Of a stretch of DNA of 49,788 nucleotides, positions 3,764-49,155 are shown piece after piece. A model generated the notes under the pieces. It saw only the letters and a list, made by a program, of their open reading frames with translations, did not search any database and was not told the origin of the DNA. The translations under genes and the position numbers were made by a program. This DNA comes from Escherichia phage LL5: the sequence record NC_047985.1; one strand, 5' to 3'. Position 1 is the stretch's first letter. Every line of letters starts with the position of its first letter.

Positions 3764-3973
3764 ATGATCCTGTCCGTTGCTTATGCTAACCCCAGGGGGT
3801 GCAATATATTTGGTTTTAAGGTTGGCGGCATGGTTAACGCCAAATACGACGACAGAGGGCGTTTAATGGTTGAAGCGCCAAAGACAAAAGTAATGATGCA
3901 CGTTAAGGAGATTGGCGGAAGGTTGGCGATCAGGTCAATGGCAGGGCAAACGCTTGTTACTTTCTGTAAATAG
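3764..3973 (+). CDS. hypothetical protein (69 aa)
   Basis: ORF with GGGGGG SD; stop TAG lies inside box copy 4. Confidence 0.5.
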   Translation: MILSVAYANPRGCNIFGFKVGGMVNAKYDDRGRLMVEAPKTKVMMHVKEIGGRLAIRSMAGQTLVTFCK

Positions 3974-3989
3974 CACTTTTTGCTAAAAC
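3968..3989 (+). promoter_or_regulatory. conserved box copy 4 (AAATAGCACTTTTTGCTAAAAC)
   Basis: followed by perfect 8-bp hairpin 3995-4020 with loop TTTGATAAAG; 76 nt upstream of ATG 4047. Confidence 0.7.
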
Positions 3990-4046
3990 TTGCTAAGGCA
4001 CATTTGATAAAGTGTGCCTTGTCGAGACAAGCAAGGAGAATGACAC

Positions 4047-4480: not shown

Positions 4481-5048
4481 AATTATCATCCTAAATGCGC
4501 CTCCTGGTGCTGGTAAAGACACAATCGGCAAGATGATTTCTTTCTATTCGCCTGGTGAGCAATGCCGCATCATTAGCTTTAAAGAGCCAATGTTTGATAT
4601 TGCATTAGCTATCCTGGGCAAAGAGAACTATCAGCGTTTCATGCTGGCTTACGATGACAGAGAGCAGAAAGAAAGGCCGCAAACGTTCCTGATGGGTATG
4701 TCGCCTCGAGAGTTCATGATCTGGATTAGCGAGGATGTGATCAAGCCTAAATTCGGCAAGGATTATTTCGGCGTAAGGTTTAACCAGAAAGTAAAAGAGT
4801 GTGATGCTCCTGTTGTTTGCACTGACGGAGGTTTTCCAGATGAAATTATCGCGCTAATCAATGCTGGTAATGAAGTGAAGCTATGCCGTTTGCATCGCGA
4901 CGGGTTCACGTTTGCAGGTGATAGCCGCAACTACATTCGAATCAATCCCTATTACCAGAAAAACGGATATAGCGAGCACGATTACTTACTAACGAATGAA
5001 AAGCCGATGATTACAGTTAGCGAAATCATTCGCGATCACCTTAAATAG
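4473..5048 (+). CDS. P-loop nucleotide or polynucleotide kinase
   Basis: Walker A near N-terminus (LNAPPGAGKDT), typical of small phage dNMP/polynucleotide kinases; stop TAG inside box copy 5. Confidence 0.65.
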   Translation: MAKIIILNAPPGAGKDTIGKMISFYSPGEQCRIISFKEPMFDIALAILGKENYQRFMLAYDDREQKERPQTFLMGMSPREFMIWISEDVIKPKFGKDYFGVRFNQKVKECDAPVVCTDGGFPDEIIALINAGNEVKLCRLHRDGFTFAGDSRNYIRINPYYQKNGYSEHDYLLTNEKPMITVSEIIRDHLK

Positions 5049-5064
5049 CACGAATTGCTAAAAC
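5043..5064 (+). promoter_or_regulatory. conserved box copy 5 (AAATAGCACGAATTGCTAAAAC)
   Basis: followed by hairpin 5071-5094 (AAGGCCA/TGGCCTT, loop TTTGATATAG). Confidence 0.7.
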
Positions 5065-5132
5065 TTGCGCAAGGCCATTTGATATAGTGGCCTTATTCAA
5101 GAGAAGCAACCAATCAGAGGAATAAACGATGA

Positions 5133-5882: not shown

Positions 5883-6353
5883 ATGATCGCTAAAAATGAC
5901 CTTTGCAACATGTTAACGGCTGGTAATGATTATCAGGTTTTGAATAGCACAGAAGACCATTATTTTATTGAGTGTGATAATGGGGATCGCATGTGGATTA
6001 AAAAATGCTTTTTCGAAAGCGAGCACCTAAGCAATGCAAAGCGGATCGCAGATGAAGCAAGCGCATTAGCAGAGCGTGAACGAATTCGCGATATAGTAGC
6101 TGAGCAGGTTAGAAATTCTTGTTTGCCTGGTGGCGATATCTTCAATCACGTAAAAGGCGTTGGCGGCTCAGGCTGGCAGATTAAAAAGACTGGTGATGCA
6201 ATCATTCAAAGCATCAACTATGAGCCTAACGAATACGTCAAAGTGCTGGATCAGTTGCGCGAAATCATGCGAGTGCCTGAAGGTGAAAGCATTGTGACAC
6301 ATGCAAAGGTTTTAATGGCGTTGGCTGATGCGCTGATTTGTCTGCAAAAATAG
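5883..6353 (+). CDS. hypothetical protein (156 aa)
   Basis: AGGAG SD then ATG 5883; stop TAG inside box copy 6. Confidence 0.55.
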   Translation: MIAKNDLCNMLTAGNDYQVLNSTEDHYFIECDNGDRMWIKKCFFESEHLSNAKRIADEASALAERERIRDIVAEQVRNSCLPGGDIFNHVKGVGGSGWQIKKTGDAIIQSINYEPNEYVKVLDQLREIMRVPEGESIVTHAKVLMALADALICLQK

Positions 6354-6369
6354 CACTTTTTGTTAAAAC
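6348..6369 (+). promoter_or_regulatory. conserved box copy 6 (AAATAGCACTTTTTGTTAAAAC)
   Basis: followed by hairpin 6377-6398 (loop TTTGTTAAAG, one G.T pair); 76 nt upstream of ATG 6427. Confidence 0.7.
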
Positions 6370-6426
6370 TTCCGCGAGGGCATTTGTTAAAGTGTCCTAA
6401 TTGAAGCGAAACATGGAGATTACGAA

Positions 6427-7677: not shown

Positions 7678-7859
7678 TAGCCAGTTGAATCTGGTAAGGT
7701 TGACGGCGTGTTGTCTGATTGGTAGATTAAACGCCGTGAACATAAGAGACTCAATAGAGCAAAGCGCGGCGCGTTAGCCGTAAAGCCAAATCGGATGGGA
7801 TTGCATTGCAAATGACCATCGCGGGAACCGTAACCCGCAACCACTCAGGAGATTAATTT

Positions 7860-8632: not shown

Positions 8633-8657
8633 AACCCGCCTTGCGCGGGTTTTTTTG
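8633..8657 (+). terminator. rho-independent terminator ending the early region
   Basis: CCCGC..GCGGG stem followed by 7 T. Confidence 0.7.
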
Positions 8658-12155: not shown

Positions 12156-12827
12156 ATGATGTTTCCCGATATGACAGAGAGCGACGTTGAAAAGGCGCTT
12201 AATGATCTGGCGGTTGATATCACTGAAAACAAAGCTGATGTAGAGGCGGCAATTGCCGCCTTTATGTTGCTGGTTTACGGGTTCGCCGTTAGTGCATACA
12301 AATACCACACTCGCCAATTTATCAGAATGGCAAAGCAAACAGGAAGCGCAAATAATCGATCCGTTATCCTTCTGATTGGTGGCGTTTACGGAAATATGAA
12401 TGAACGTTGGTTCAATTCAAAATACATAACCTGGCGATCACTTATTGAGGCATCCGTAAGGAAATTTGCGTATAATGTGCTTGATGATTGGGAAGTGCAA
12501 CAGCGTTTAAATGAGTTACGCGAGCAAGCAGAAACAAGAGCGCAGATCCGAAAGCGTCTAAGAAAATATAAGGCGTGGGCTAAAAATAGGGCGTCTGGTT
12601 TTGTTGGTTCGTGGTATTCCGTGTTAATGTATCAACGCGTGGTTGATACAGGAGTTACCCATTATATTTGGCGTACTCAGGAAGATAACATGGTTAGACC
12701 TGAACACGCTAAATTGGACATGAAACGGATCTCATTGGCAATAAAGCACATATTCCCAGGGCAGGAATATAATTGTCGCTGTTGGGCGCAACCGGATTGG
12801 GAAACAGAGCAAGAGGTATATTTATGA
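12156..12827 (+). CDS. head morphogenesis protein (Mu F / SPP1 gp7-like)
   Basis: C-terminal motif VRPEHAKLDMK...PGQEYNCRCWAQP. Confidence 0.8.
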   Translation: MMFPDMTESDVEKALNDLAVDITENKADVEAAIAAFMLLVYGFAVSAYKYHTRQFIRMAKQTGSANNRSVILLIGGVYGNMNERWFNSKYITWRSLIEASVRKFAYNVLDDWEVQQRLNELREQAETRAQIRKRLRKYKAWAKNRASGFVGSWYSVLMYQRVVDTGVTHYIWRTQEDNMVRPEHAKLDMKRISLAIKHIFPGQEYNCRCWAQPDWETEQEVYL

Positions 12828-27900: not shown

Positions 27901-28762
27901 AGCGGAAGCGCGAGCGTCAGCGGATAGGGCGTTATCAACTCAAATTGGTGATACCCAATCAGCGGTTAACCAGAAACTTGATTCATGGGTTAACGGTACA
28001 AGCGTTGGTGCGATGTACGGCGTTAAGTTGGGGATCAGGTATAACGGGCAGGAATATAGCGCAGGTATGGCTCTTTCTCTTGTCGCTGATGGTGGCGGAG
28101 TTAAATCACAATTCCTGTTTGATGCCGGAAGATTTGCGATCATAAACAACCAACAGAGCGGAGCCTTTACATTGCCGTTTGTTGTTGAGAATAATCAGGT
28201 GTTTATCAACAGCTTACTTGTGAAAAATGGCTCTATTGGTAACGCTCAGATTGCGGATCAGATTAACTCTAACAACTGGAGCAGCGGCGCGGCTGGATGG
28301 ATGATTAATAAGAATGGTTATGCTGAATTTAACCAGGTAACGGTAAGGGGTACAGTGTACGCAAACGCCGGATCATTCACTGGTAACGTTTACGCTACTG
28401 ATGGTTGGTTTAGGGGTACTGTTTACGCTGAAAAAATCGAGGGCGACGTTGCAAAGGCTGTTGTTCTTGGGTTTAACGGATCGGTTCACATTCCGGCAGT
28501 AAACTACAACAGACACCTTGTGATTCCTTATGTTGGTTTGCATGGCTATACCTATTCAGGCGGTACGTGGGGCGGTGGTACTGTTTGGGTTGATTCATCA
28601 TATGGCGGTCGCTTGGCTGACGTTCAAGCTACGGCTATGCATGGCGGTTCAAGTGGATACCTTCTGTTGCCAGCGGGTAACGCAACAACGCTTTCATATG
28701 GTGGCAACCTGAATCACGCTAACGCGGTTCCAGTATTAACAATACTGCTATTCAAAGCATAA
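24986..28762 (+). CDS. tail tip / host specificity protein (lambda gpJ-like)
   Basis: 1258 aa following M-L-K-I; conserved N-terminal two-thirds, divergent C-terminus. Confidence 0.9.
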   Translation: MIKNMITGSKGGSSKPHTPVEMEDNLISINRIRILLAVSDGEVDPNFSLKDLYFDDVPVMNQDGSLNFQNVKAEFRPGTQTQDYIQGFTDTASEVTVARDLTAATPYIISVTNKNISAIRIKILMPRGVTQEDNGDLTGVRVEYAVDMAVDGAEYKEVLHDVIEGKTMSGYDRSRRIDLPAFNDRVLLRVRRMTDSTSARVTDLIKMQSYAEVVDAKFRYPLTGLVYVEFDSELFPNDLPNISIKKKWKIINVPSNYDPISRTYSGSWDGTWKKAWSNNPAFVLYDLITNQRYGLDQRELGIAIDKWSIYECAQYCDQMVPDGNGGTEPRYLCDVVIQSQVEAYQLVRDICSIFRGMSFWNGESLSIVIDKPRDASYIFTNDNVVNGEFTYTFASEKSMYTQCNVTFDDEQNMYQQDVEGVFETEAALRFGYNSTSITAIGCTRRSEANRRGRWILKTNVKSTTVNFATGLEGMIPTVGDVIVVSDNFWSSALTLNLSGRVMEVSGLQVFTPFKVDARAGDRILVNKPDGKPVGRTIARVSDDGKTLTLNTTFGFDVQPDTIFAIERTDIAQQRYVVTGITNGDGDEEFTYNITAVEYDPNKYDEIDYGVNIDDRPTSIVQPDILPAPKNVKIESYSRVVQGTSVETMHVSWDKVEYASLYEMQWRKDNGNWNNTPRTANKETEVEGIYAGNYHVRVRSVAANGSASGWSAIVSAGLTGKVGEPERPINLTASDNEVFGIRVKWGMPEGSGDTAYIELHQAPNGSDGHPIVDEATLLTLIPFPQYEYWHSILPAGHVVWYKARAVDKIGNVSDWTDFVRGMASDDTSIITDHIKVDIENSDGYKWLQENAIKANDKIHSTAESVIENALANDKDVRRMRVENGKRKAEFLQSLKLIADETEARVTQVTQMSAQFDEKLTAQNSELREVIANSTETISQRIDQLTATFESEIDGVKQDIKAQITDVNKAITNEAEARASADRALSTQIGDTQSAVNQKLDSWVNGTSVGAMYGVKLGIRYNGQEYSAGMALSLVADGGGVKSQFLFDAGRFAIINNQQSGAFTLPFVVENNQVFINSLLVKNGSIGNAQIADQINSNNWSSGAAGWMINKNGYAEFNQVTVRGTVYANAGSFTGNVYATDGWFRGTVYAEKIEGDVAKAVVLGFNGSVHIPAVNYNRHLVIPYVGLHGYTYSGGTWGGGTVWVDSSYGGRLADVQATAMHGGSSGYLLLPAGNATTLSYGGNLNHANAVPVLTILLFKA

Positions 28763-28884
28763 AAAGGAGGTAAATCAATGCCCTGGCTTAACGGTCGGGG
28801 CATTTTGTTTTCTTTTGTTCCACGATGTTCGCAACCGAATACGGCGTAAAATTGAAAACGTCTTGATAACAAAAAGAACAAATT

Positions 28885-28903
28885 AAATATCTATATAATA
28901 CAT
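28885..28903 (+). repeat. 19-bp AT-rich motif AAATATCTATATAATACAT (second copy at 32-50)
   Basis: identical 19-mer in both large noncoding regions, each followed by similar TAATTATTATTATATAT stretch. Confidence 0.7.
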
Positions 28904-29167
28904 ACACTTAGAGTTTAATTATTATTATATATATCTATTTGTATTATTATTGTTTCTATTGTTCTATATGGTTTGTGGTGGTTGTGTGTTTTGTATTGGT
29001 TGATGGTTATATATCACATGGTATGTATTTATATATGGTATGCGGCGCAAATGCGTGAACAATGGAACACAAAAACAACAATTAGTAAAATCATAAATTT
29101 ACGATGTGATTTTGTTGTCAATGCTAGTTGTAAACGTATGCAAAACAAAAAGAACACTTAAAGGGTA

Positions 29168-29195
29168 TTGACTACATGCAACAAAGACATATAAT
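29168..29195 (+). promoter_or_regulatory. strong sigma70-like promoter for exonuclease-Erf-SSB operon
   Basis: TTGACT-16 nt-TATAAT; about 28 nt upstream of SD/ATG 29224. Confidence 0.6.
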
Positions 29196-29223
29196 GCAGG
29201 CATACCAACGAGGGGATGACAAA

Positions 29224-30279
29224 ATGAGCGATTTTAAAGTTTACACCTTTGACCAGTTAACCAATGATAAATATCACGATCCTAAAGGTTGGGCGGCTGA
29301 ATACGTTAGCGGTTCAAGCCTGGCAGAAATCTTTGCAAGTTGTCCGGCAGCATGGAAATACAGACCACGCGAGGAAAGCAAAGCGCTTGTTTTCGGTACG
29401 CAGTCACATACCAACTTTCAAAGCAGTGAGTTGTTCGCAAAAGAGTACCGCCGAGCGCCAGCGCCGGAAGATTACGAAAACTTAATCACAAGCCAAACGG
29501 CATTAGCCAGCAAGTTAAAATCTTTTGGCCTGACTGGTACAAGCGGGAAAACTTATCCAGACCTGATAAAAATGATGGTTGATTGTGGTGAGGATCTTAA
29601 TGTTCAGTGGCTGATTGAAATGATCGCAGAAAGCGAGGCGCGAGCGGATAACGTTGAATTGGTTCCTGCTAAAGATTACGACGCTTGCGTTACCATGCGC
29701 CGCGTACTGGAAAGCATACCTGAACACAACGCTTGTATGAATAGCCCAACAGCACAACGCGAGCTATCAATTTTCGGCACTATAAAAGGCGTGAAAGTCA
29801 AAGTAAGGCTTGACCATGTTGATATTTGCAAGGATGTGCTTGCAACGGTGATTTCCGGCTATGACGGTGAAGGGAATCCGGTTTATGAAACAACGCGATT
29901 TGATGAAGCGATTGTGATCACTGATTACAAAACAACGTCAAGCGCTAACCCAACGGAGTTTTCACGGCTGGCATTTAATCATGGTTACTACTTGAAAATG
30001 GCATTGCAGCATGACCTATTCAAGAAAGCGTATCCAGAAGAAACGCGCCCCGTAGTAGTCAGATTGCTGGCGCAGGAAAAGAAAGAGCCTTATTTACCTA
30101 TTGCATACCGCATGACGGATGAACAATTGAAGATCGGACGGCTTCAATACATGAGTGTGATAAACCAGTTTGCAGAATGCCAGGAAAATGACGTTTGGCC
30201 TTCATACGCAAACGGAGAGCCTGAAATTGATCTTCAAACGCCTGATTGGGTTCGTCGTCAATACAAAGGTTTTTTATAA
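29224..30279 (+). CDS. PD-(D/E)xK exonuclease (recombination exonuclease, putative)
   Basis: motifs RLDHVD and ITDYKTT; sits upstream of Erf-like annealase. Confidence 0.6.
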   Translation: MSDFKVYTFDQLTNDKYHDPKGWAAEYVSGSSLAEIFASCPAAWKYRPREESKALVFGTQSHTNFQSSELFAKEYRRAPAPEDYENLITSQTALASKLKSFGLTGTSGKTYPDLIKMMVDCGEDLNVQWLIEMIAESEARADNVELVPAKDYDACVTMRRVLESIPEHNACMNSPTAQRELSIFGTIKGVKVKVRLDHVDICKDVLATVISGYDGEGNPVYETTRFDEAIVITDYKTTSSANPTEFSRLAFNHGYYLKMALQHDLFKKAYPEETRPVVVRLLAQEKKEPYLPIAYRMTDEQLKIGRLQYMSVINQFAECQENDVWPSYANGEPEIDLQTPDWVRRQYKGFL

Positions 30280-30299
30280 ATAGCACTTTTTGCTAAAAA
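30278..30299 (+). promoter_or_regulatory. conserved box copy 7 (AAATAGCACTTTTTGCTAAAA)
   Basis: followed by perfect 8-bp hairpin 30308-30331 whose loop holds TATACT; 76 nt upstream of ATG 30357. Confidence 0.7.
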
Positions 30300-30356
30300 A
30301 GCCATTAGATGCGTGGTATACTACACGCATCAACCAACGAGAGAGAGGAAATAAAA

Positions 30357-30647
30357 ATGGAACAGCAATTCAATGAACAAGACATTCAAGATGTACGCGA
30401 TCACGTAGGCGGATTTGTAAACGCATTAGGAATTATGCAACGCCAGTTCTTGCGCGTAATTGATCCAAGCGAATCACCGGAAACTCTTGAATATGTTCGC
30501 AAGGTTGCATATTTGATTGATAACGTTGTGTTAACGGTTCTTCAAATGGAAAATAACGAAGAACATCGCAAGATGATTAATCAGGCAAGTGAAATCATGA
30601 TCCAGAATTTGATTGATTATCACAACGAGAACAAAGAAAAGTATTAA
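30357..30647 (+). CDS. hypothetical protein (96 aa)
   Basis: GAGAGAGG SD. Confidence 0.5.
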   Translation: MEQQFNEQDIQDVRDHVGGFVNALGIMQRQFLRVIDPSESPETLEYVRKVAYLIDNVVLTVLQMENNEEHRKMINQASEIMIQNLIDYHNENKEKY

Positions 30648-30693
30648 TTAACATGGCGGCGCAAGCCGCCATTATTAAACCGGAGCCAATGAA

Positions 30694-31356
30694 ATGAAAT
30701 TTTCCGAACAAAACGCAAACGTAATTAAGGCATTGTTTGAGGCGCGTCAATTATTCACCAAAGTAAAAAAGGATAAGCAAAACACGCACCTGAAAAATAA
30801 ATATGCAACTCTTGACAGCGTTCTTGATGCTATTATGCCTGGCCTTACTGATAAGGGTTTATTCCTTACTCAAGATCAGAAAGTTGGCGAAGATTTGAAA
30901 TCAATGACGGTTTTAACTCGCTTCATTCACGTTGAATCAAATGAATGGGTTGAATATAGTTTCACGTTGCCAATGCAGAAATTAGATCCACAAGGCGGCG
31001 GCTCAACAAACAGCTATGCGAGACGTTATGCTCTTTGCACGGCTCTTGGCCTGGCAACGGCTGACGATGACGCAAATCTTGCCACCAAAAACGCGCAGGA
31101 TTGGAAAAAAGATCTTGATGCTTGCGATAACCTTACAGACTTGCAAGAAACGTTTAAAACTGCTTACAAGCAATCTGACGCAGCAAACCGCCGAATCATT
31201 AAAGAACATTACGACAAGCTGAAAGCTAAAATGGAAATCGGAAAGGCTCGCGGTTTTAATCCGGCTGAACCAGCGGCGAATGTTGCAAAGAATGAAAAGG
31301 TTGAAAAGGAACCGCAACAGGAAGTAAAATCACAATCTATCACTGACTTTGAATAA
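30694..31356 (+). CDS. erf: Erf-family single-strand annealing protein
   Basis: KYATLDSVLDAI and GSTNSYARRYALCTALGLATADDD resemble P22 Erf. Confidence 0.75.
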   Translation: MKFSEQNANVIKALFEARQLFTKVKKDKQNTHLKNKYATLDSVLDAIMPGLTDKGLFLTQDQKVGEDLKSMTVLTRFIHVESNEWVEYSFTLPMQKLDPQGGGSTNSYARRYALCTALGLATADDDANLATKNAQDWKKDLDACDNLTDLQETFKTAYKQSDAANRRIIKEHYDKLKAKMEIGKARGFNPAEPAANVAKNEKVEKEPQQEVKSQSITDFE

Positions 31357-31394
31357 TTTATCGCGGGGCGATAACGCCCCGATAAGGAAATAAA

Positions 31395-31820
31395 ATGCAC
31401 GTTATCACCGGAGAAATTCGCAAAGAGCCTTTTGTTAATCAAGGGCAAAACGGCACGCTTTATATTGTTGATCTTTCAGAATCATATAAAGATCGAGAAG
31501 GTAACAGACAATACACCAATTACAAATTCTTCTTTAATGCAAAAAGCGAGGGAATGAATAATTGGTATCGTGAAGCATTTCAGCAGGGTAAAGTTATTTC
31601 TGTATCATGCGATCAGTTGCGCATTGATAGCCAGGAATACAACGGGCAGGTTTATAACACATTGACGGCGGCGGGTTGGCCTAATCTTTTATTCAGCCAG
31701 CGCGGAGAAGGGAAAGCGCCACAACAGCAACGACCTACTCAGCAACAGCCACAACAGAAACAACAAGCACCACAAAACAACGAGCCTCCAATTGATTTCG
31801 ACGACGATATCCCATTCTGA
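31395..31820 (+). CDS. ssb: single-stranded DNA-binding protein
   Basis: Gln/Pro-rich linker and acidic tail DFDDDIPF as in E. coli SSB. Confidence 0.9.
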   Translation: MHVITGEIRKEPFVNQGQNGTLYIVDLSESYKDREGNRQYTNYKFFFNAKSEGMNNWYREAFQQGKVISVSCDQLRIDSQEYNGQVYNTLTAAGWPNLLFSQRGEGKAPQQQRPTQQQPQQKQQAPQNNEPPIDFDDDIPF

Positions 31821-31825
31821 TAAAA

Positions 31826-31852
31826 TAAAACCCCGCAATGCGGGGTTTTTTA
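31826..31852. terminator. bidirectional terminator between ssb (+) and tail fibre (-)
   Basis: AAAACCCCGCAATGCGGGGTTTTTT flanked by A- and T-tracts. Confidence 0.75.
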
Positions 31853-34363
31853 TTACTTAGTAAGCTGAACAAGCATTGCTTTCATTTCAGCCATTGCGGT
31901 TTTCATTTCAGTAATTTCTTCTTTCATTTCCTCATTGTCTTTTTGTAACTCTTGAATCACAACAATAAGATCAGAAACAACAGCGCGATCATTAACGTTC
32001 ATGATTTCGAATTCATCACCATTTTCATCTGTTGCAGTGCCGCCAAAGAAAACGTAAGTATCATCTATTTCAGCCATTTGTTGCGCAAGATAACCACGCT
32101 GCAAAACATTATTTCCCTTATATGAAAACTCCATTACACCAATCTGCTTAACTCGATCCCACGCACCGACCTTTGGTTTTTCAAAGCGATCTTTAATCCT
32201 AACGTCAGACCCCTGAATTGCCACCACTCCTAGCGGCGTATTCATTATGCCGTCATCCCTAATTGAATAACTCAAACTTGAGCCATTCGATTTTGTAAGT
32301 TGCCAAGAGTAATATGTAATACCATCAACAGCGGTAATGATGTAGTTTGTTACACCGCAATTTGAATTTGCCAGATAGGAAAGCTGGTTAATTTTGTATG
32401 AATCATTTGTTTGCTGATCTGCAAGTTTTTGCACAGCCGCAACATCGGAACCACCAGTACCATAAAAAGCCCTTGAAAGCGCATTGCCTGGAATAGTAAG
32501 GTTTCCATCAGATCCAAAAATCATAACAGATGTATTATCACCAACAGCACTTATTTTTGCTTCGGTTATCCCATTTCCTATTGTTTGCGATGCATAAAAA
32601 TCAGCGCTAAAGTTGTCAGCAGTTCCAACTTTATATTTAGATTGAATCTTACCTCCAGTAACAAAAGTTCCCTGTTGTGGCAATTCTTTATCACCATTAA
32701 TAACGCTCCATGAAGTATTAGCAGCAATAAATCCGCCAAATGCTCGAATAACCCAAACACCAACAAAGTTTTTAGGAATTATGTTGTTTGAAATAGCATA
32801 TCTGCCATATACAGAATCGCTTCTTTCTGCGTTAAAATTAGTTGTAGCATTATTACGTATTCTACCAAAAGTCCCATCATTCGGTAAAAATGTTTCCTCT
32901 GTAGAAGATGCATATCCGAAAGCTCCAGATACAGTTCTAGGGGATGGCATCCATACTTTACCACTAGTATCATTAGCAAATGTACCGATTATATTTGGTG
33001 CAGCCGCTTGATAAATACGCCCATCTTCTGATGAAGTACCACCATCACCACGACCGAAAAGGCTTGTAACTGATCCAGGTTGAACACCGTTTCTATCAGG
33101 TACACGGAAAGTTGTAGTTCCGTCGCCTGTAGAATATCTGCCCCTTTTTTCTACATCAGCAAGCCAATCAGAATCACTAATCGGGCTTAATAGTTGTGCA
33201 TAAGACCATAACTCTGGATAATCTTCTCTTGATAGTAGTTGTCCGTCAGATGTTATCTCATACGGCTGTATATATGCTCGTGAATCTCTTAGGTGAAAAT
33301 CACCCACACCATAATTCATAACGCCATTCATAGTTGGGCCAAGAATCCCAGAATTTATTCTATTTTCCACCCATCGCACTGTTGTGGCATCATAATCGTT
33401 AACTGGGTCACCAGCTAGAGGAGTTGGTCCTATAGGCCGAACGTTAAGCCATGCCGCAGCGCGATCCGCGATACCATCAAGATTATCTTTCTTTAGGAAT
33501 GCTTCAGATATTGATGGAACTTTTAAATTTGCCCTCGCTTCTTCAATGTTTGCTATATCATTAAGATTCTGATCTTTATGCAACATATTGTCTGGATTAA
33601 CCTGTTGCGCCCATTGGCGAGCTTCATCACGCGCAGTTTCAGCGCCAGACTTTGCATTATCAGCACCAACCTTTGATTGCTCTGCGGCTAATTGTGCGTT
33701 TTCAGCTTCATCACGCGCGTCTAATGCTTCATTTTTAATTCCGGTTATCTCAGTAACGGCAGAATCTTTAATCTGTTGCGTTTGGTTTTTTATTGCGTCC
33801 GTGTCTGCCTTAATCTGATTGGTTTCAGCAATAGCGGAATCTTTAATCTGTTGCGTTTCATTAACAGCGGCATCTTTAATTTGTTGAGTTTCATTTACAG
33901 CAGAATCCTTAATCTGTTGCGTATCATTTTTTAATTGTTCGGTTGCAACTTTATCAGCGGCAACTTGTGCGGCATCAGCATGAACCTTATTGATTAAATC
34001 CTGCAATTCTTTCAGATCAAAATTCCTGAAAAAGTCAAGAGCTTCCTCAATGACCGTTTCTTTGCTTTGATAATAACGCAGCGTTTCCGCTACATCTTGC
34101 GCCATTCCGTCAACAGTTAACGAGTCATTCAACAGGATCACATATTTACCATCAGAAACAACAGCGCCATCAGTGCTAATAGCCTTCATTTCAGTGTCGC
34201 TAACAATTTCACTAATAACGGCAAGCTGAATAACTGGTTGCTCAAGAAATACAATGGTTGCGCCAGTGCGAATTAATGACAAAGGTTCACGCCATTTTGT
34301 TCCAGTGCCAGTAATAACGCCTTGTGCGTCCATAGCGGCGGTTCCAATACGATATAAAGCCAT
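31853..34363 (-). CDS. tail fibre with C-terminal intramolecular chaperone (peptidase S74-like) domain
   Basis: 836 aa; C-terminus SDVRIKDRF...coiled-coil [26 protein letters not shown]; 11-aa repeats in N-terminal part. Confidence 0.8.
33750..33935 (-). repeat. imperfect 33-bp tandem repeats inside tail fibre gene
   Basis: about 5 copies of GAATCTTTAATCTGTTGCGTTTCATTAACAGCG-like units. Confidence 0.7.
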
Positions 34364-42844: not shown

Positions 42845-43249
42845 ATGAAATGGCTAAAATTGCTTTACCCGTTTGCAGTAATCATATTTGCGTGTTTTAT
42901 TGTAGCTTGTTCGCCGTCAAGCGTGTTACCTGGTCTGATTGGTAGCAAGCCTGATATAACGGCACAGGCTGGAGCTGAGAATGTGAAACAGACTGTTGGT
43001 GTAACCGCAAAGCAGGATACATCAAGCAAGCAGGAAACCACATTTAAAGAATCGGCTGTTGGAAAGGTTGACACGTCGAATAAAAAACAGGTGAGCACTT
43101 CAAGCATTAAGGCAGACAACATCACAGCGGAAAGAATAGAGATCCGCAATAATGATGGTCTTAATGTTACTGCAATCGCAATTGGTATATTGATGTTTAT
43201 TGCTGGTATGCTGGCAGGGTGGACACTTAAACGTAACAAGGCGGCATAA
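42845..43249 (+). CDS. unimolecular spanin (lipoprotein with C-terminal TM anchor)
   Basis: lipobox IVACS plus C-terminal TM AIAIGILMFIAGMLAGW; follows endolysin. Confidence 0.7.
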   Translation: MKWLKLLYPFAVIIFACFIVACSPSSVLPGLIGSKPDITAQAGAENVKQTVGVTAKQDTSSKQETTFKESAVGKVDTSNKKQVSTSSIKADNITAERIEIRNNDGLNVTAIAIGILMFIAGMLAGWTLKRNKAA

Positions 43250-43264
43250 GCCGCCTTTTCTTTT
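43240..43264. terminator. terminator hairpin overlapping spanin stop
   Basis: GGCGGC-ATAA-GCCGCC then TTTTCTTTT. Confidence 0.6.
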
Positions 43265-45359: not shown

Positions 45360-45411
45360 CTAAAAATCTCCTTCTTGTTGCCGCTAATTATAACGGCAAC
45401 ATTCTACAGCC

Positions 45412-45432
45412 TTTTAGCAATTCGTGCTATTT
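45412..45432 (-). promoter_or_regulatory. conserved box copy 11 (- strand AAATAGCACGAATTGCTAAAA)
   Basis: TAG is stop of ORF 45427-45675; hairpin 45377-45400 follows; 71 nt upstream of ATG 45359. Confidence 0.7.
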
Positions 45433-49078: not shown

Positions 49079-49134
49079 CGTTTGACTCTCCTGATTGGTT
49101 GATGTGTGTATTATGCCGGAATCAGATCCGGCAC

Positions 49135-49155
49135 GTTTAACAAAAAGTGCTATTT
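49135..49155 (-). promoter_or_regulatory. conserved box copy 15 (- strand AAATAGCACTTTTTGTTAAAC)
   Basis: TAG is stop of ORF 49150-49428; hairpin GCCGGA/TCCGGC 49115-49132 then GCATAATA. Confidence 0.7.

What the first reader, a model, noticed from the sequence alone, without database searches (positions are those of the whole stretch)
30653..31385. GC-rich palindromes without T-tracts flank the Erf gene
ATGGCGGC-GCAA-GCCGCCAT (30653-30672, GNRA-type loop) lies just upstream of erf and a CGGGGCG/CGCCCCG hairpin (31358-31385) lies between erf and ssb. Neither is followed by a T-tract, so they are unlikely to be intrinsic terminators; they may be RNA stability or translational-coupling elements, or protein-binding palindromes.
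Basis: seen in the sequence. Interest (0 to 1): 0.25.

Follow-up and report, generated by a model that had tools for sequence, protein, structure and literature searches.

The report
Conserved mRNA hairpins between phage recombination genes
Two short GC-rich hairpins on either side of the Erf recombinase gene of this T1/Tls-like coliphage are real and conserved RNA stem-loops, most likely ordinary mRNA-stabilising or weakly terminating elements between genes, not a new kind of signal.

Summary
The window is a Tls-like Drexlerviridae phage genome (96% identical to phage Tls over this region). HP1 is ATGGCGGC-GCAA-GCCGCCAT at 30653-30672. HP2 is CGGGGCG-ATAA-CGCCCCG at 31364-31381, with a weak A/U extension to 31358-31385. 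They lie in the orf96-erf and erf-ssb spacers of a four-gene operon (recE-orf96-erf-ssb) that has a strong promoter and a strong terminator.

Neither is a chance match. HP2 is kept in 50 of 54 distinct erf-ssb spacers across the family, 5-8 nt after the erf stop codon. Five of its seven pairs show compensatory changes. Its loops are mostly UUCG or GNRA on the coding strand, and the T1 group has G.U pairs. HP1 occurs only where orf96 occurs (26 of 28 loci), and 18 of 19 variants have a GNRA loop.

This supports a sense-strand RNA element and argues against a DNA site bound by a protein. Most copies lack a U-tract, but some HP2 orthologues have one, and the Tls orthologue of HP1 is already published as predicted terminator T52.

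Most likely function: decay barriers within the polycistronic mRNA, possibly with weak termination. This function is inferred, not shown. The finding is ordinary: a new member of a known kind.

The parts
30653..30672 (+). HP1: an 8-bp stem with a GCAA (GNRA) tetraloop in the orf96-erf spacer. It has no canonical U-tract.
   Evidence: It is conserved wherever orf96 is present (26 of 28 loci). 18 of 19 variants have a GNRA loop, one pair shows a C-G to A-U swap, and two variants have a G.U pair. The orthologue in phage Tls is published as predicted terminator T52.
31364..31381 (+). HP2 core: a 7-bp all-G/C stem with an AUAA loop in the erf-ssb spacer. It has no U-tract.
   Evidence: It is present in 50 of 54 distinct erf-ssb spacers across Drexlerviridae. 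Five of seven pairs show changes on both sides; the covariation score is 0.477 against 0.114 in shuffles.
31358..31385 (+). HP2 with its optional outer UUAU/AUAA extension across a 2-nt bulge. The extension touches the first bases of the ssb SD.
   Evidence: MFE and centroid fold. The outer pairs are not conserved in relatives (pairs 7-8).
29168..29195 (+). Context: sigma-70-like promoter of the operon (TTGACT-16-TATAAT, 11 of 12 matches). It corresponds to P51 of phage Tls.
   Evidence: PMC11447400, Suppl. Table S1.
29224..30279 (+). Context: recE-like exonuclease gene. The alternative start is at 29176.
   Evidence: PF12684; annotations of relatives.
30278..30331 (+). Context: the DR9-type 21-nt direct repeat (30278-30298) followed by palindrome HP0 (30308-30331). 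The HP0 loop holds TGGTATACT, an extended -10-like box. HP0 is a different class from HP1 and HP2.
   Evidence: The direct repeat is described in PMC11447400.
30357..30647 (+). Context: orf96, a 96-aa protein of unknown function. HP1 follows it.
30694..31356 (+). Context: erf, encoding the ssDNA annealing protein.
   Evidence: PF04404, E = 1.6e-27; phrog_155.
31395..31820 (+). Context: ssb, a phage-type single-stranded-DNA-binding protein.
   Evidence: phrog_44, E = 4e-25.
31827..31849 (.). Context: canonical bidirectional intrinsic terminator that ends the operon. It lies between the convergent ssb and tail-fibre genes.
   Evidence: (z = -4.07).

Best explanation
HP1 and HP2 are cis-acting stem-loops in the sense-strand polycistronic mRNA recE-orf96-erf-ssb. 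That mRNA runs from the promoter at 29168-29195 to the terminator at 31827-31849.

[quoted passage not shown] The most likely role is as a decay barrier. After an endonucleolytic cut, the hairpin blocks 3'-5' exonucleases (PNPase, RNase II) and so stabilises the upstream cistron. It may also leave the downstream cistron with a structured 5' end that hinders RNase E. Either way, one transcript yields unequal amounts of RecE, orf96, Erf and SSB message.

The hairpins look like terminator hairpins that lack, or have lost, the U-tract, which lets RNA polymerase read through to the downstream genes. HP1 may still terminate weakly.

Shown here: the hairpins exist, they are under selection as base-paired structures on the coding strand, their position is fixed relative to the stop codon, and most copies lack a U-tract.

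Inferred only: the decay-barrier function.
For: 1. HP2 is present in 50 of 54 distinct erf-ssb spacers from T1-, Tls-, Rogue1-, ESCO41-, PHB17-, SRT8- and Webervirus-type phages. It starts 5-8 nt after the stop codon in 47 of the 50.

2. The HP2 stem is kept by GC/CG swaps and other double changes at 5 of 7 pairs. The covariation score is 0.477 against 0.114 +/- 0.025 in shuffles (0 of 500 reach it), and the slid controls score 0.10 or less. Pairs 1-5 are canonical in all 33 distinct tetraloop versions.

3. On the coding strand the loops are UUCG (8 versions), GAAA (6), GCAA (4) and GUAA (1). HP1 loops are GCAA, GAAA, GCGA or GAGA in 18 of 19 variants. The complements of these loops are not special tetraloops.

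4. G.U pairs occur on the coding strand: the T1 group has GGGCGGC/GUCGCCC, and L039/L040 have GGCGGC/GUCGCC.

5. HP1 follows orf96 in 26 of 28 loci even where the orf96 protein is only 30-35% identical, and it is absent where orf96 is absent.

6. U-tracts are lacking. The HP2 tail score is -1.96, the window median. Only 9 of 50 orthologous spacers have at least 5 T in the next 8 nt. HP1 orthologues are mostly followed by CAACCAAUCAGGAG-type leaders.

7. ssb has no promoter of its own in the 38-nt spacer, so the operon depends on read-through.

8. In the host E. coli, stable stem-loops not followed by U-rich sequence mark and protect mRNA 3' ends from PNPase and RNase II (PMC6061677). Conserved intergenic hairpins also set differential decay within operons, including several per operon (PMC5927463).
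Against: - There are no RNA-end or half-life data for any Drexlerviridae phage. Three literature searches found none. The function is therefore inferred by analogy.
- The HP1 core is almost invariant (3 of 7 pairs never vary; one swap event and one G.U event), so its covariation support is thin.
- The HP2 alignment was anchored on the loop, so the fraction paired is partly by construction. Related sequences also inflate the cell counts.
- Some HP2 orthologues carry a full U-tract, so termination may be part of the conserved function.
- The stem begins only 5-8 nt after the stop codon, so a terminating ribosome would partly melt it. This fits a translation-linked role equally well.
- No conserved RNase E motif was found next to the hairpins (read by eye from the spacer sequences).
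Confidence: 0.45

Rival explanations
1. Leaky intrinsic terminators (attenuators). RNA polymerase terminates at HP1 and/or HP2 in a fraction of rounds. This sets a transcriptional gradient recE > orf96 > erf > ssb.
For: - The Tls orthologue of HP1 was called a rho-independent terminator (T52, -17.1 kcal/mol) by ARNold/Genome2D.
- The HP1 tail AUUAUU scores -2.8 to -3.0, in the top 11-16% of window positions.
- 9 of 50 HP2 orthologous spacers have at least 5 T in the next 8 nt, for example GGGGCG-ATTG-CGCCCC-TTTTTT.
- The stem GGCGGC-N4-GCCGCC is also used by a true terminator at 43238-43257.
Against: - HP2 in the window has 1 T in 8, and its tail score is the window median.
- Most HP1 orthologues are followed by C/A-rich leaders with no U at all, so the conserved feature is the hairpin, not the tail.
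- By established knowledge, E. coli RNA polymerase needs the U-tract for efficient intrinsic termination.
- The downstream genes have no promoter of their own in the 38-46 nt spacers, so strong termination would silence erf and ssb.
Confidence: 0.25
2. Translational elements. One option is insulators that keep the downstream Shine-Dalgarno sequence single-stranded or uncouple the ribosomes of adjacent cistrons. The other is an operator in which the hairpin plus the A-rich unstructured leader is bound by the phage SSB (or Erf) to autoregulate its own translation, as T4 gp32 and gp43 do.
For: - HP2 ends 2 nt before the ssb SD, and the leader AUAAGGAAAUAAAAUG is unstructured and A-rich. The same layout is seen in relatives.
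- The stem starts 5-8 nt after the stop codon, so a terminating ribosome must open it.
- T4 gp43 binds an operator made of an upstream hairpin plus sequence overlapping the ribosome-binding site, and gp32 autoregulates on its own leader (PMC3014915).
Against: - No loop or stem sequence is shared across genera that a specific protein could read. Loops vary among UUCG, GAAA, GCAA, AUAA and CUUG.
- The distance from hairpin to start codon varies from 12 to 26 nt.
- A-rich leaders are the norm in this AT-rich genome.
- HP1 precedes erf, not an SSB gene.
Confidence: 0.12
3. DNA-level elements. One option is palindromic operators for a dimeric DNA-binding protein. Another is that HP1 forms the spacer of a promoter (TTAACA-16-CATTAT, 30648-30675). 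A third is single-stranded-DNA hairpins used in replication or recombination.
For: - The promoter scan reports a 9-of-12 match that spans HP1.
- Elsewhere in this genome hairpins do sit inside or next to -10-like boxes, as in HP0 and the DR-linked units.
- The HP1 core sequence is nearly invariant.
- G.T pairs and GNRA-type loops are also tolerated in single-stranded-DNA hairpins (established knowledge).
Against: - Promoter-like matches in the region are not above the shuffled expectation: 8 found against 10.1 +/- 2.9.
- The CATTAT box is not conserved in HP1 orthologues, which have TAACCT, CAACCA or TTTAAG in its place.
- The arms of HP1 and HP2 differ from each other, and the HP2 arms change between genera while pairing is kept.
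- The loop is asymmetric and strand-specific.
- The position is tied to the stop codon and SD of an mRNA.
Confidence: 0.05

Closest known systems
[quoted passage not shown]
   Same: - Stable G/C-rich stem-loops at gene boundaries that are not followed by U-rich sequence.
- Conserved between related genomes.
- There can be several per operon.
- The host and RNase set are the same as for this phage.
   Different: - No RNA-end or half-life data exist for the phage hairpins.
- The phage hairpins are minimal (5-8 bp with a tetraloop) and lie entirely in very short spacers of 38-46 nt.
- Many of the E. coli structures lie inside the downstream coding sequence.
Canonical intrinsic terminators of the same phage family (for example window 31827-31849; T28-T69/70 of phage Tls, PMC11447400)
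   Same: - The same hairpin style: a G/C stem, a 3-6 nt loop, and a position a few nt after a stop codon.
- The HP1 stem GGCGGC/GCCGCC is identical to that of the terminator at 43238-43257.
- The Tls orthologue of HP1 is listed as T52.
- Some HP2 orthologues carry a U-tract.
   Different: - HP2 has no U-tract, and HP1 has only AUUAUU.
- Both lie inside an operon whose distal genes need read-through.
Intercistronic C(UUCG)G hairpins of phage T4 mRNAs (Tuerk et al. 1988 PNAS; cited from my own knowledge, not checked here)
   Same: - Extra-stable tetraloop hairpins between phage cistrons that are not obviously terminators.
- T1-group HP2 orthologues are literally C(UUCG)G.
   Different: - The phage family is unrelated.
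- The function in T4 is also largely inferred.
- The window's own loops are GCAA and AUAA.
Translational operators of T4 gene 32 and gene 43 (PMC3014915)
   Same: A structured element lies upstream of an unstructured A/U-rich leader that includes the ribosome-binding site of a DNA-metabolism gene. For HP2 that gene encodes an SSB.
   Different: - There is no pseudoknot and no conserved loop sequence.
- No binding data exist.
- The hairpin is much closer to the SD.
Lambda-type nut sites (boxA plus boxB)
   Same: A small G/C stem with a purine-rich GNRA-like loop in an early or recombination transcript.
   Different: - The loop is a tetraloop, not the GAAAA/GAAGA pentaloop.
- No boxA (CGCUCUUA) lies next to either hairpin (sequence read directly).
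- No N-like antiterminator is known in T1-like phages.

Membership tests
Intrinsic (Rho-independent) terminator | A G/C-rich stem-loop with a short loop, just downstream of a gene | tested here: met
   HP1 has 8 bp and a 4-nt loop (-15.8 kcal/mol). HP2 has 7 bp and a 4-nt loop. They start 5 and 7 nt after the stop codons.
Intrinsic (Rho-independent) terminator | A U-tract directly after the stem (about 5 or more U in 8 nt) | tested here: not met
   HP2 has 1 T in 8 and a tail score of -1.96, the window median. HP1 has 3 T in 8 and a tail score of -3.0, which is borderline. The window's terminators score -3.8 to -5.4. The terminator scan lists neither hairpin.
Intrinsic (Rho-independent) terminator | Transcripts end at the site in vitro or in vivo | not testable with these tools
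   No transcript-end data for Drexlerviridae were found. The T52 call for the Tls orthologue of HP1 is a software prediction.
Protective intercistronic stem-loop (decay barrier; malE-malF type or Rho-dependent 3'-end type) | A stable stem-loop at a cistron boundary that is not followed by U-rich sequence | tested here: met
   The family-wide tails are given.
Protective intercistronic stem-loop (decay barrier; malE-malF type or Rho-dependent 3'-end type) | The structure is conserved in related genomes | tested here: met
   HP2 is present in 50 of 54 spacers, with 5 of 7 pairs changed on both sides. HP1 is present in 26 of 28 loci that have orf96.
Protective intercistronic stem-loop (decay barrier; malE-malF type or Rho-dependent 3'-end type) | Steady-state 3' ends at the base of the stem that depend on PNPase/RNase II, and a longer half-life of the protected segment | not testable with these tools
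   This needs Term-seq and rifampicin decay experiments in infected cells.
Lambda-type nut site | A boxB stem with a GNRA-like pentaloop plus a boxA element upstream | tested here: not met
   The loops have 4 nt. No CGCTCTTA-like box occurs in 30620-30652 or 31320-31363 (sequence read).
Palindromic DNA operator of a dimeric regulator | A shared arm sequence at several sites and conservation of sequence, not of pairing | tested here: not met
   The HP1 and HP2 arms differ (GGCGGC against GGGGCG). The HP2 arms change between genera while pairing is kept, and the loops are asymmetric.
Known Rfam RNA family | A match at or above the family's gathering score | tested here: not met
   No hit reached its gathering score in 28700-32000. 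The best hit over HP1 was PrrB_RsmZ, 25 bits against a threshold of 44.

The most novel reading that the evidence does not exclude
HP2 and the unstructured A-rich leader that follows it form a translational operator on which the phage SSB (or Erf) represses its own synthesis once single-stranded DNA is saturated. This would be a T4 gene 32-like feedback loop that arose independently and is conserved across Drexlerviridae. The hairpin would act as the fixed boundary or nucleation point for cooperative protein binding over the ribosome-binding site.
Probability: 0.08. Interest if true: 0.5.

Novelty: new member of a known kind. Interest (0 to 1): 0.2.

Why it matters
If the decay-barrier reading is right, these hairpins would explain how a T1-like phage that relies on host RNA polymerase sets different amounts of exonuclease, annealing protein and SSB from one transcript.

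They also give annotators a simple rule. G/C tetraloop hairpins without a U-tract inside Drexlerviridae operons are conserved RNA elements. They should not be called terminators by default, as T52 was in phage Tls.

The practical value is modest: small, portable, family-tested stabiliser or insulator hairpins for phage engineering. No open question in the field depends on this result.

Tried and rejected
- **Rfam scan of 28700-32000 at a permissive E-value.** It gave only sub-threshold hits, mostly on the terminator at 31827-31849. Nothing hit HP1 or HP2 credibly.

- **Plain MAFFT alignment of the HP2 hairpins (A2).** It shifted the register between stem types and could not be used. I re-aligned with artificial constant anchors to keep the loop-centred register (A4). 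Because of this, the percentage paired is partly by construction.

- **First census with six-frame greedy ORFs.** It mislabelled spacers as coding because of spurious antisense ORFs. I redid it with a strand-aware gene map.

- **HP1 as a promoter spacer (TTAACA-16-CATTAT).** Rejected. The -10 box is not conserved in orthologues, and promoter-like hits are not above the shuffled expectation.

- **RNase E RN|WUU motifs next to the hairpins (read by eye).** Single matches occur upstream of HP1 (GUAUU) and HP2 (AAUUU), but they are not conserved in relatives and are expected by chance in A/U-rich sequence. I dropped them.

- **Terminators for the opposite strand.** Rejected. The minus-strand tails are GTTAATTA and CGATAAAT, and there are no minus-strand genes there.

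- **Literature searches for Drexlerviridae or T1 transcriptomics.** Nothing was found.

- **Capped large-database tools.** I did not use the protein-homology, structure-prediction or metagenome tools. The question concerns non-coding elements, and the viral collections gave enough relatives.

Full report
**What the window is.**
- The region 29100-32000 is 96% identical to Escherichia phage Tls and 92-95% identical to many Tlsvirus phages of Citrobacter, Salmonella and E. coli. The window is therefore a T1-like Drexlerviridae genome.
- ORFs and family searches give this local map:
  - terminator, 28777-28804;
  - sigma-70-like promoter, 29168-29195 (TTGACT-16-TATAAT);
  - recE-like exonuclease, 29224-30279 (PF12684);
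  - orf96, 30357-30647;
  - erf, 30694-31356 (PF04404, E = 1.6e-27; phrog_155);
  - ssb, 31395-31820 (phrog_44, E = 4e-25);
  - bidirectional terminator, 31827-31849.
- The Tls paper calls the same promoter P51 (PMC11447400).

**Check of the observation.**
- HP1 is ATGGCGGC-GCAA-GCCGCCAT at 30653-30672. It has 8 perfect pairs and a GNRA loop, with an MFE of -15.8 kcal/mol and z = -2.35.
- HP2 is CGGGGCG-ATAA-CGCCCCG at 31364-31381. An optional UUAU/AUAA extension reaches 31358-31385. Its z-score is -2.78.
- HP1 lies 5 nt after the orf96 stop codon and 9 nt before the erf GGAG. HP2 lies 7 nt after the erf stop codon and 2 nt before the ssb AAGGA.
- I scored the tails with the d'Aubenton-Carafa/TransTermHP formula. 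HP1 scores -3.0, in the top 11% of window positions, so it is weakly T-enriched. HP2 scores -1.96, the window median. The window's real terminators score -3.8 to -5.4.
- Perfect G/C-rich hairpins with stems of 7 bp or more occur at 17 loci in the window, against 1.9 +/- 1.2 in first-order Markov simulations.
- Almost all the others are followed by T-runs. HP1 and HP2 are the exceptions in this genome.

**Relatives.** I fetched 23 and then 80 loci from IMG/VR with the Erf protein and with an Erf alignment. I also fetched annotated loci for T1, Rogue1, PHB17, SRT8, ESCO41 and KpV522.

**HP2 across the family.**
- Of 54 distinct erf-ssb spacers, 50 hold a G/C hairpin of 5 bp or more. Three of the other four hold a one-mismatch version, and the fourth (L082) has the hairpin but was missed by my spacer parsing.
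- The stem starts 5-8 nt after the stop codon in 47 of the 50.
- There are several stem types:
  - (C/U)GGGGCG...CGCCCC(G/A) in Tls-like phages;
  - GGGCGGC-UUCG-GUCGCCC in the T1 group;
  - GGGGC-UUCG-GCCCC in the Rogue1 and ESCO41 groups;
  - GGGCGG-GAAA-CCGCCC in Webervirus.
- In 33 distinct tetraloop versions, pairs 1-5 are always canonical. They show GC/CG swaps at pairs 1, 2 and 4, one at pair 3, and G.U at pair 2 in six versions.
- On a loop-centred alignment, 5 of 7 pairs show changes on both sides. The covariation score is 0.477 against 0.114 +/- 0.025 in shuffles (0 of 500 reach it), and the slid registers score 0.10 or less.
- Two caveats apply. The register was chosen by structure, so the fraction paired is partly built in. 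Related sequences also inflate the cell counts.
- The loops are UUCG (8), GAAA (6), GCAA (4) and GUAA (1), plus others.
- Only 9 of 50 spacers have at least 5 T in the 8 nt after the stem, and 25 have 2 or fewer.
- In more distant phages whose Erf is followed by a canonical SSB, the gap is about 10 nt and there is no hairpin.

**HP1 across the family.**
- T1, Rogue1, PHB17, SRT8, ESCO41 and KpV522 lack orf96 and lack HP1.
- Of 28 loci with an orf96 homologue (protein identity 30-97%), 26 have the tetraloop hairpin in the orf96-erf spacer. One more has a one-mismatch version.
- The core GGCGGC/GCCGCC is nearly invariant. Three sequences carry a C-G to A-U swap (GGGAGGC/GCCUCCC) and two carry a G.U pair (GGCGGC/GUCGCC). 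The flanks diverge.
- 18 of 19 variants have a GNRA loop (GCAA, GAAA, GCGA or GAGA). All the loop substitutions seen keep GNRA.
- The tails are mostly C/A-rich leaders such as CAACCAAUCAGGAG. Only the Tls group has AUUAUU, and a few have UUUAAGGAG.

**What this says about the level of action.**
- Three things point to a structure in the coding-strand RNA:
  - tetraloops that are special only on the coding strand;
  - G.U pairs that would be C.A mismatches on the other strand;
  - pairing that is kept while the arm sequence changes.
- They argue against a duplex DNA site for a protein. A single-stranded-DNA hairpin on the same strand cannot be formally excluded. However, the fixed position between a stop codon and a Shine-Dalgarno sequence fits an expression-level role.
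- The promoter-like match that spans HP1 is not conserved.

**Mechanism.**
- erf and ssb have no promoter of their own in the 46- and 38-nt spacers, so polymerase must pass both hairpins.
- In E. coli, stable stem-loops without U-rich tails define and protect mRNA 3' ends from PNPase and RNase II (PMC6061677).
- Conserved intergenic hairpins also shape differential decay within operons. They act either as 3' blocks for the upstream gene or as structured 5' ends for the downstream gene, and there can be several per operon (PMC5927463).
- That is the best-fitting known mechanism. I rate it 0.45 and it is inferred, not shown.
- Weak termination is the main rival, at 0.25:
  - the Tls orthologue of HP1 is a published predicted terminator, T52;
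  - some HP2 orthologues have a full U-tract;
  - the HP1 stem is identical to that of the true terminator at 43238-43257.
- An evolutionary reading consistent with both is that these are terminator-type hairpins whose U-tract is absent or eroded because the distal genes need read-through. HP1 would be the 3' boundary of the inserted orf96 cassette.
- A translational role (insulator, or an SSB/Erf operator like those of T4 gp32 and gp43, PMC3014915) is possible but has no specific support (0.12).
- DNA-level readings get 0.05.

**Novelty and score.**
- HP1 is already in the literature as a predicted terminator in Tls.
- HP2 is not listed there. I found no report of its family-wide conservation in the searches I ran.
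- Both are ordinary elements: minimal intercistronic stem-loops. Verdict: a new member of a known kind, with interest about 0.2.

**Side observation.**
- The recE-orf96 spacer holds a different element. The published 21-nt direct repeat (DR9-type, 30278-30298) is followed by palindrome HP0 (30308-30331), whose loop carries an extended -10-like box, TGGTATACT.
- The HP0 arms covary across the family while the TATAAT-like box is kept.
- The same layout, a direct repeat followed by a palindrome that encloses or precedes a -10-like box, recurs at many sites in the window.
- The Tls paper reports the repeats but found only three sigma-70 promoters and does not mention the palindromes.

Noticed in passing
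window 30278-30331; also 1340-1390, 2767-2815, 3970-4021, 5045-5094, 6350-6398, and on the minus strand about 45376-45430 and 49114-49153: The published 21-nt direct repeat (aaATAGCACnnnTTGnTAAAA; DR1-18 of phage Tls) is regularly followed, about 10 nt later, by a palindrome whose loop or 3' edge holds an extended -10-like box (TGnTATAAT-like, for example TGGTATACT in HP0). The arms of the recE-erf copy covary across Drexlerviridae while the box is kept. TTGnTA lies 21-22 nt from the box, which is too far for a normal -35/-10 pair. This looks like a family-specific promoter unit embedded in a hairpin. The Tls paper lists the repeats but found only three sigma-70 promoters.
   Followed up: partly
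window 30357-30647: orf96 matches phrog_11265 (E = 6e-55), which is labelled 'tail length tape measure protein'. It is only 96 aa and sits in the recombination operon. The label looks like an annotation artefact that has spread into RefSeq records (rows). The gene is absent from T1, Rogue1, PHB17, SRT8, ESCO41 and KpV522, so it behaves like an inserted cassette whose 3' boundary is HP1.
   Followed up: partly
window 7821-7838: This is another G/C hairpin without a T-tract: GCGGG-AACCGTAA-CCCGC, followed by the leader AACCACTCAGGAG. It may belong to the same class as HP1 and HP2, but it has an 8-nt loop.
   Followed up: no
window 12244-12261, 30653-30672, 43238-43257: Three hairpins share the same stem, GGCGGC-N4-GCCGCC, with loops AATT, GCAA and ATAA. 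The third is a bidirectional terminator (T69/T70 in Tls). The stem ACCCGC/GCGGGT likewise recurs at 8633, 24911, 39895 and 46286.
   Followed up: no
window 30332-30356 and many spacers in relatives (for example L056, L066): A leader motif, CAACCAA(C/T)(C/G)AGGAG, recurs between hairpins or promoters and start codons of unrelated genes. This suggests a shared, possibly mobile, translation-initiation cassette.
   Followed up: no
hit H1 (OR786094.1): A record named 'Streptococcus phage MBBL140', with host Streptococcus agalactiae, is 93% identical to this enterobacterial Tls-like region over its full length. It is probably a mislabelled host or a contaminant.
   Followed up: no
L007/L036 (IMGVR_UViG_2974598561) and L010/L043 (IMGVR_UViG_2706796530): The erf reading frame is interrupted in these two otherwise 99%-identical relatives: a premature stop in one and split ORFs in the other. 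These could be sequencing errors or real pseudogenes.
   Followed up: no
window 31827-31849: A single hairpin, AAAACCCCGC-AAT-GCGGGGTTTT, with A- and T-runs on both sides, serves as a bidirectional terminator between the convergent ssb and tail-fibre genes. In relatives this position holds unrelated terminator hairpins.
   Followed up: partly
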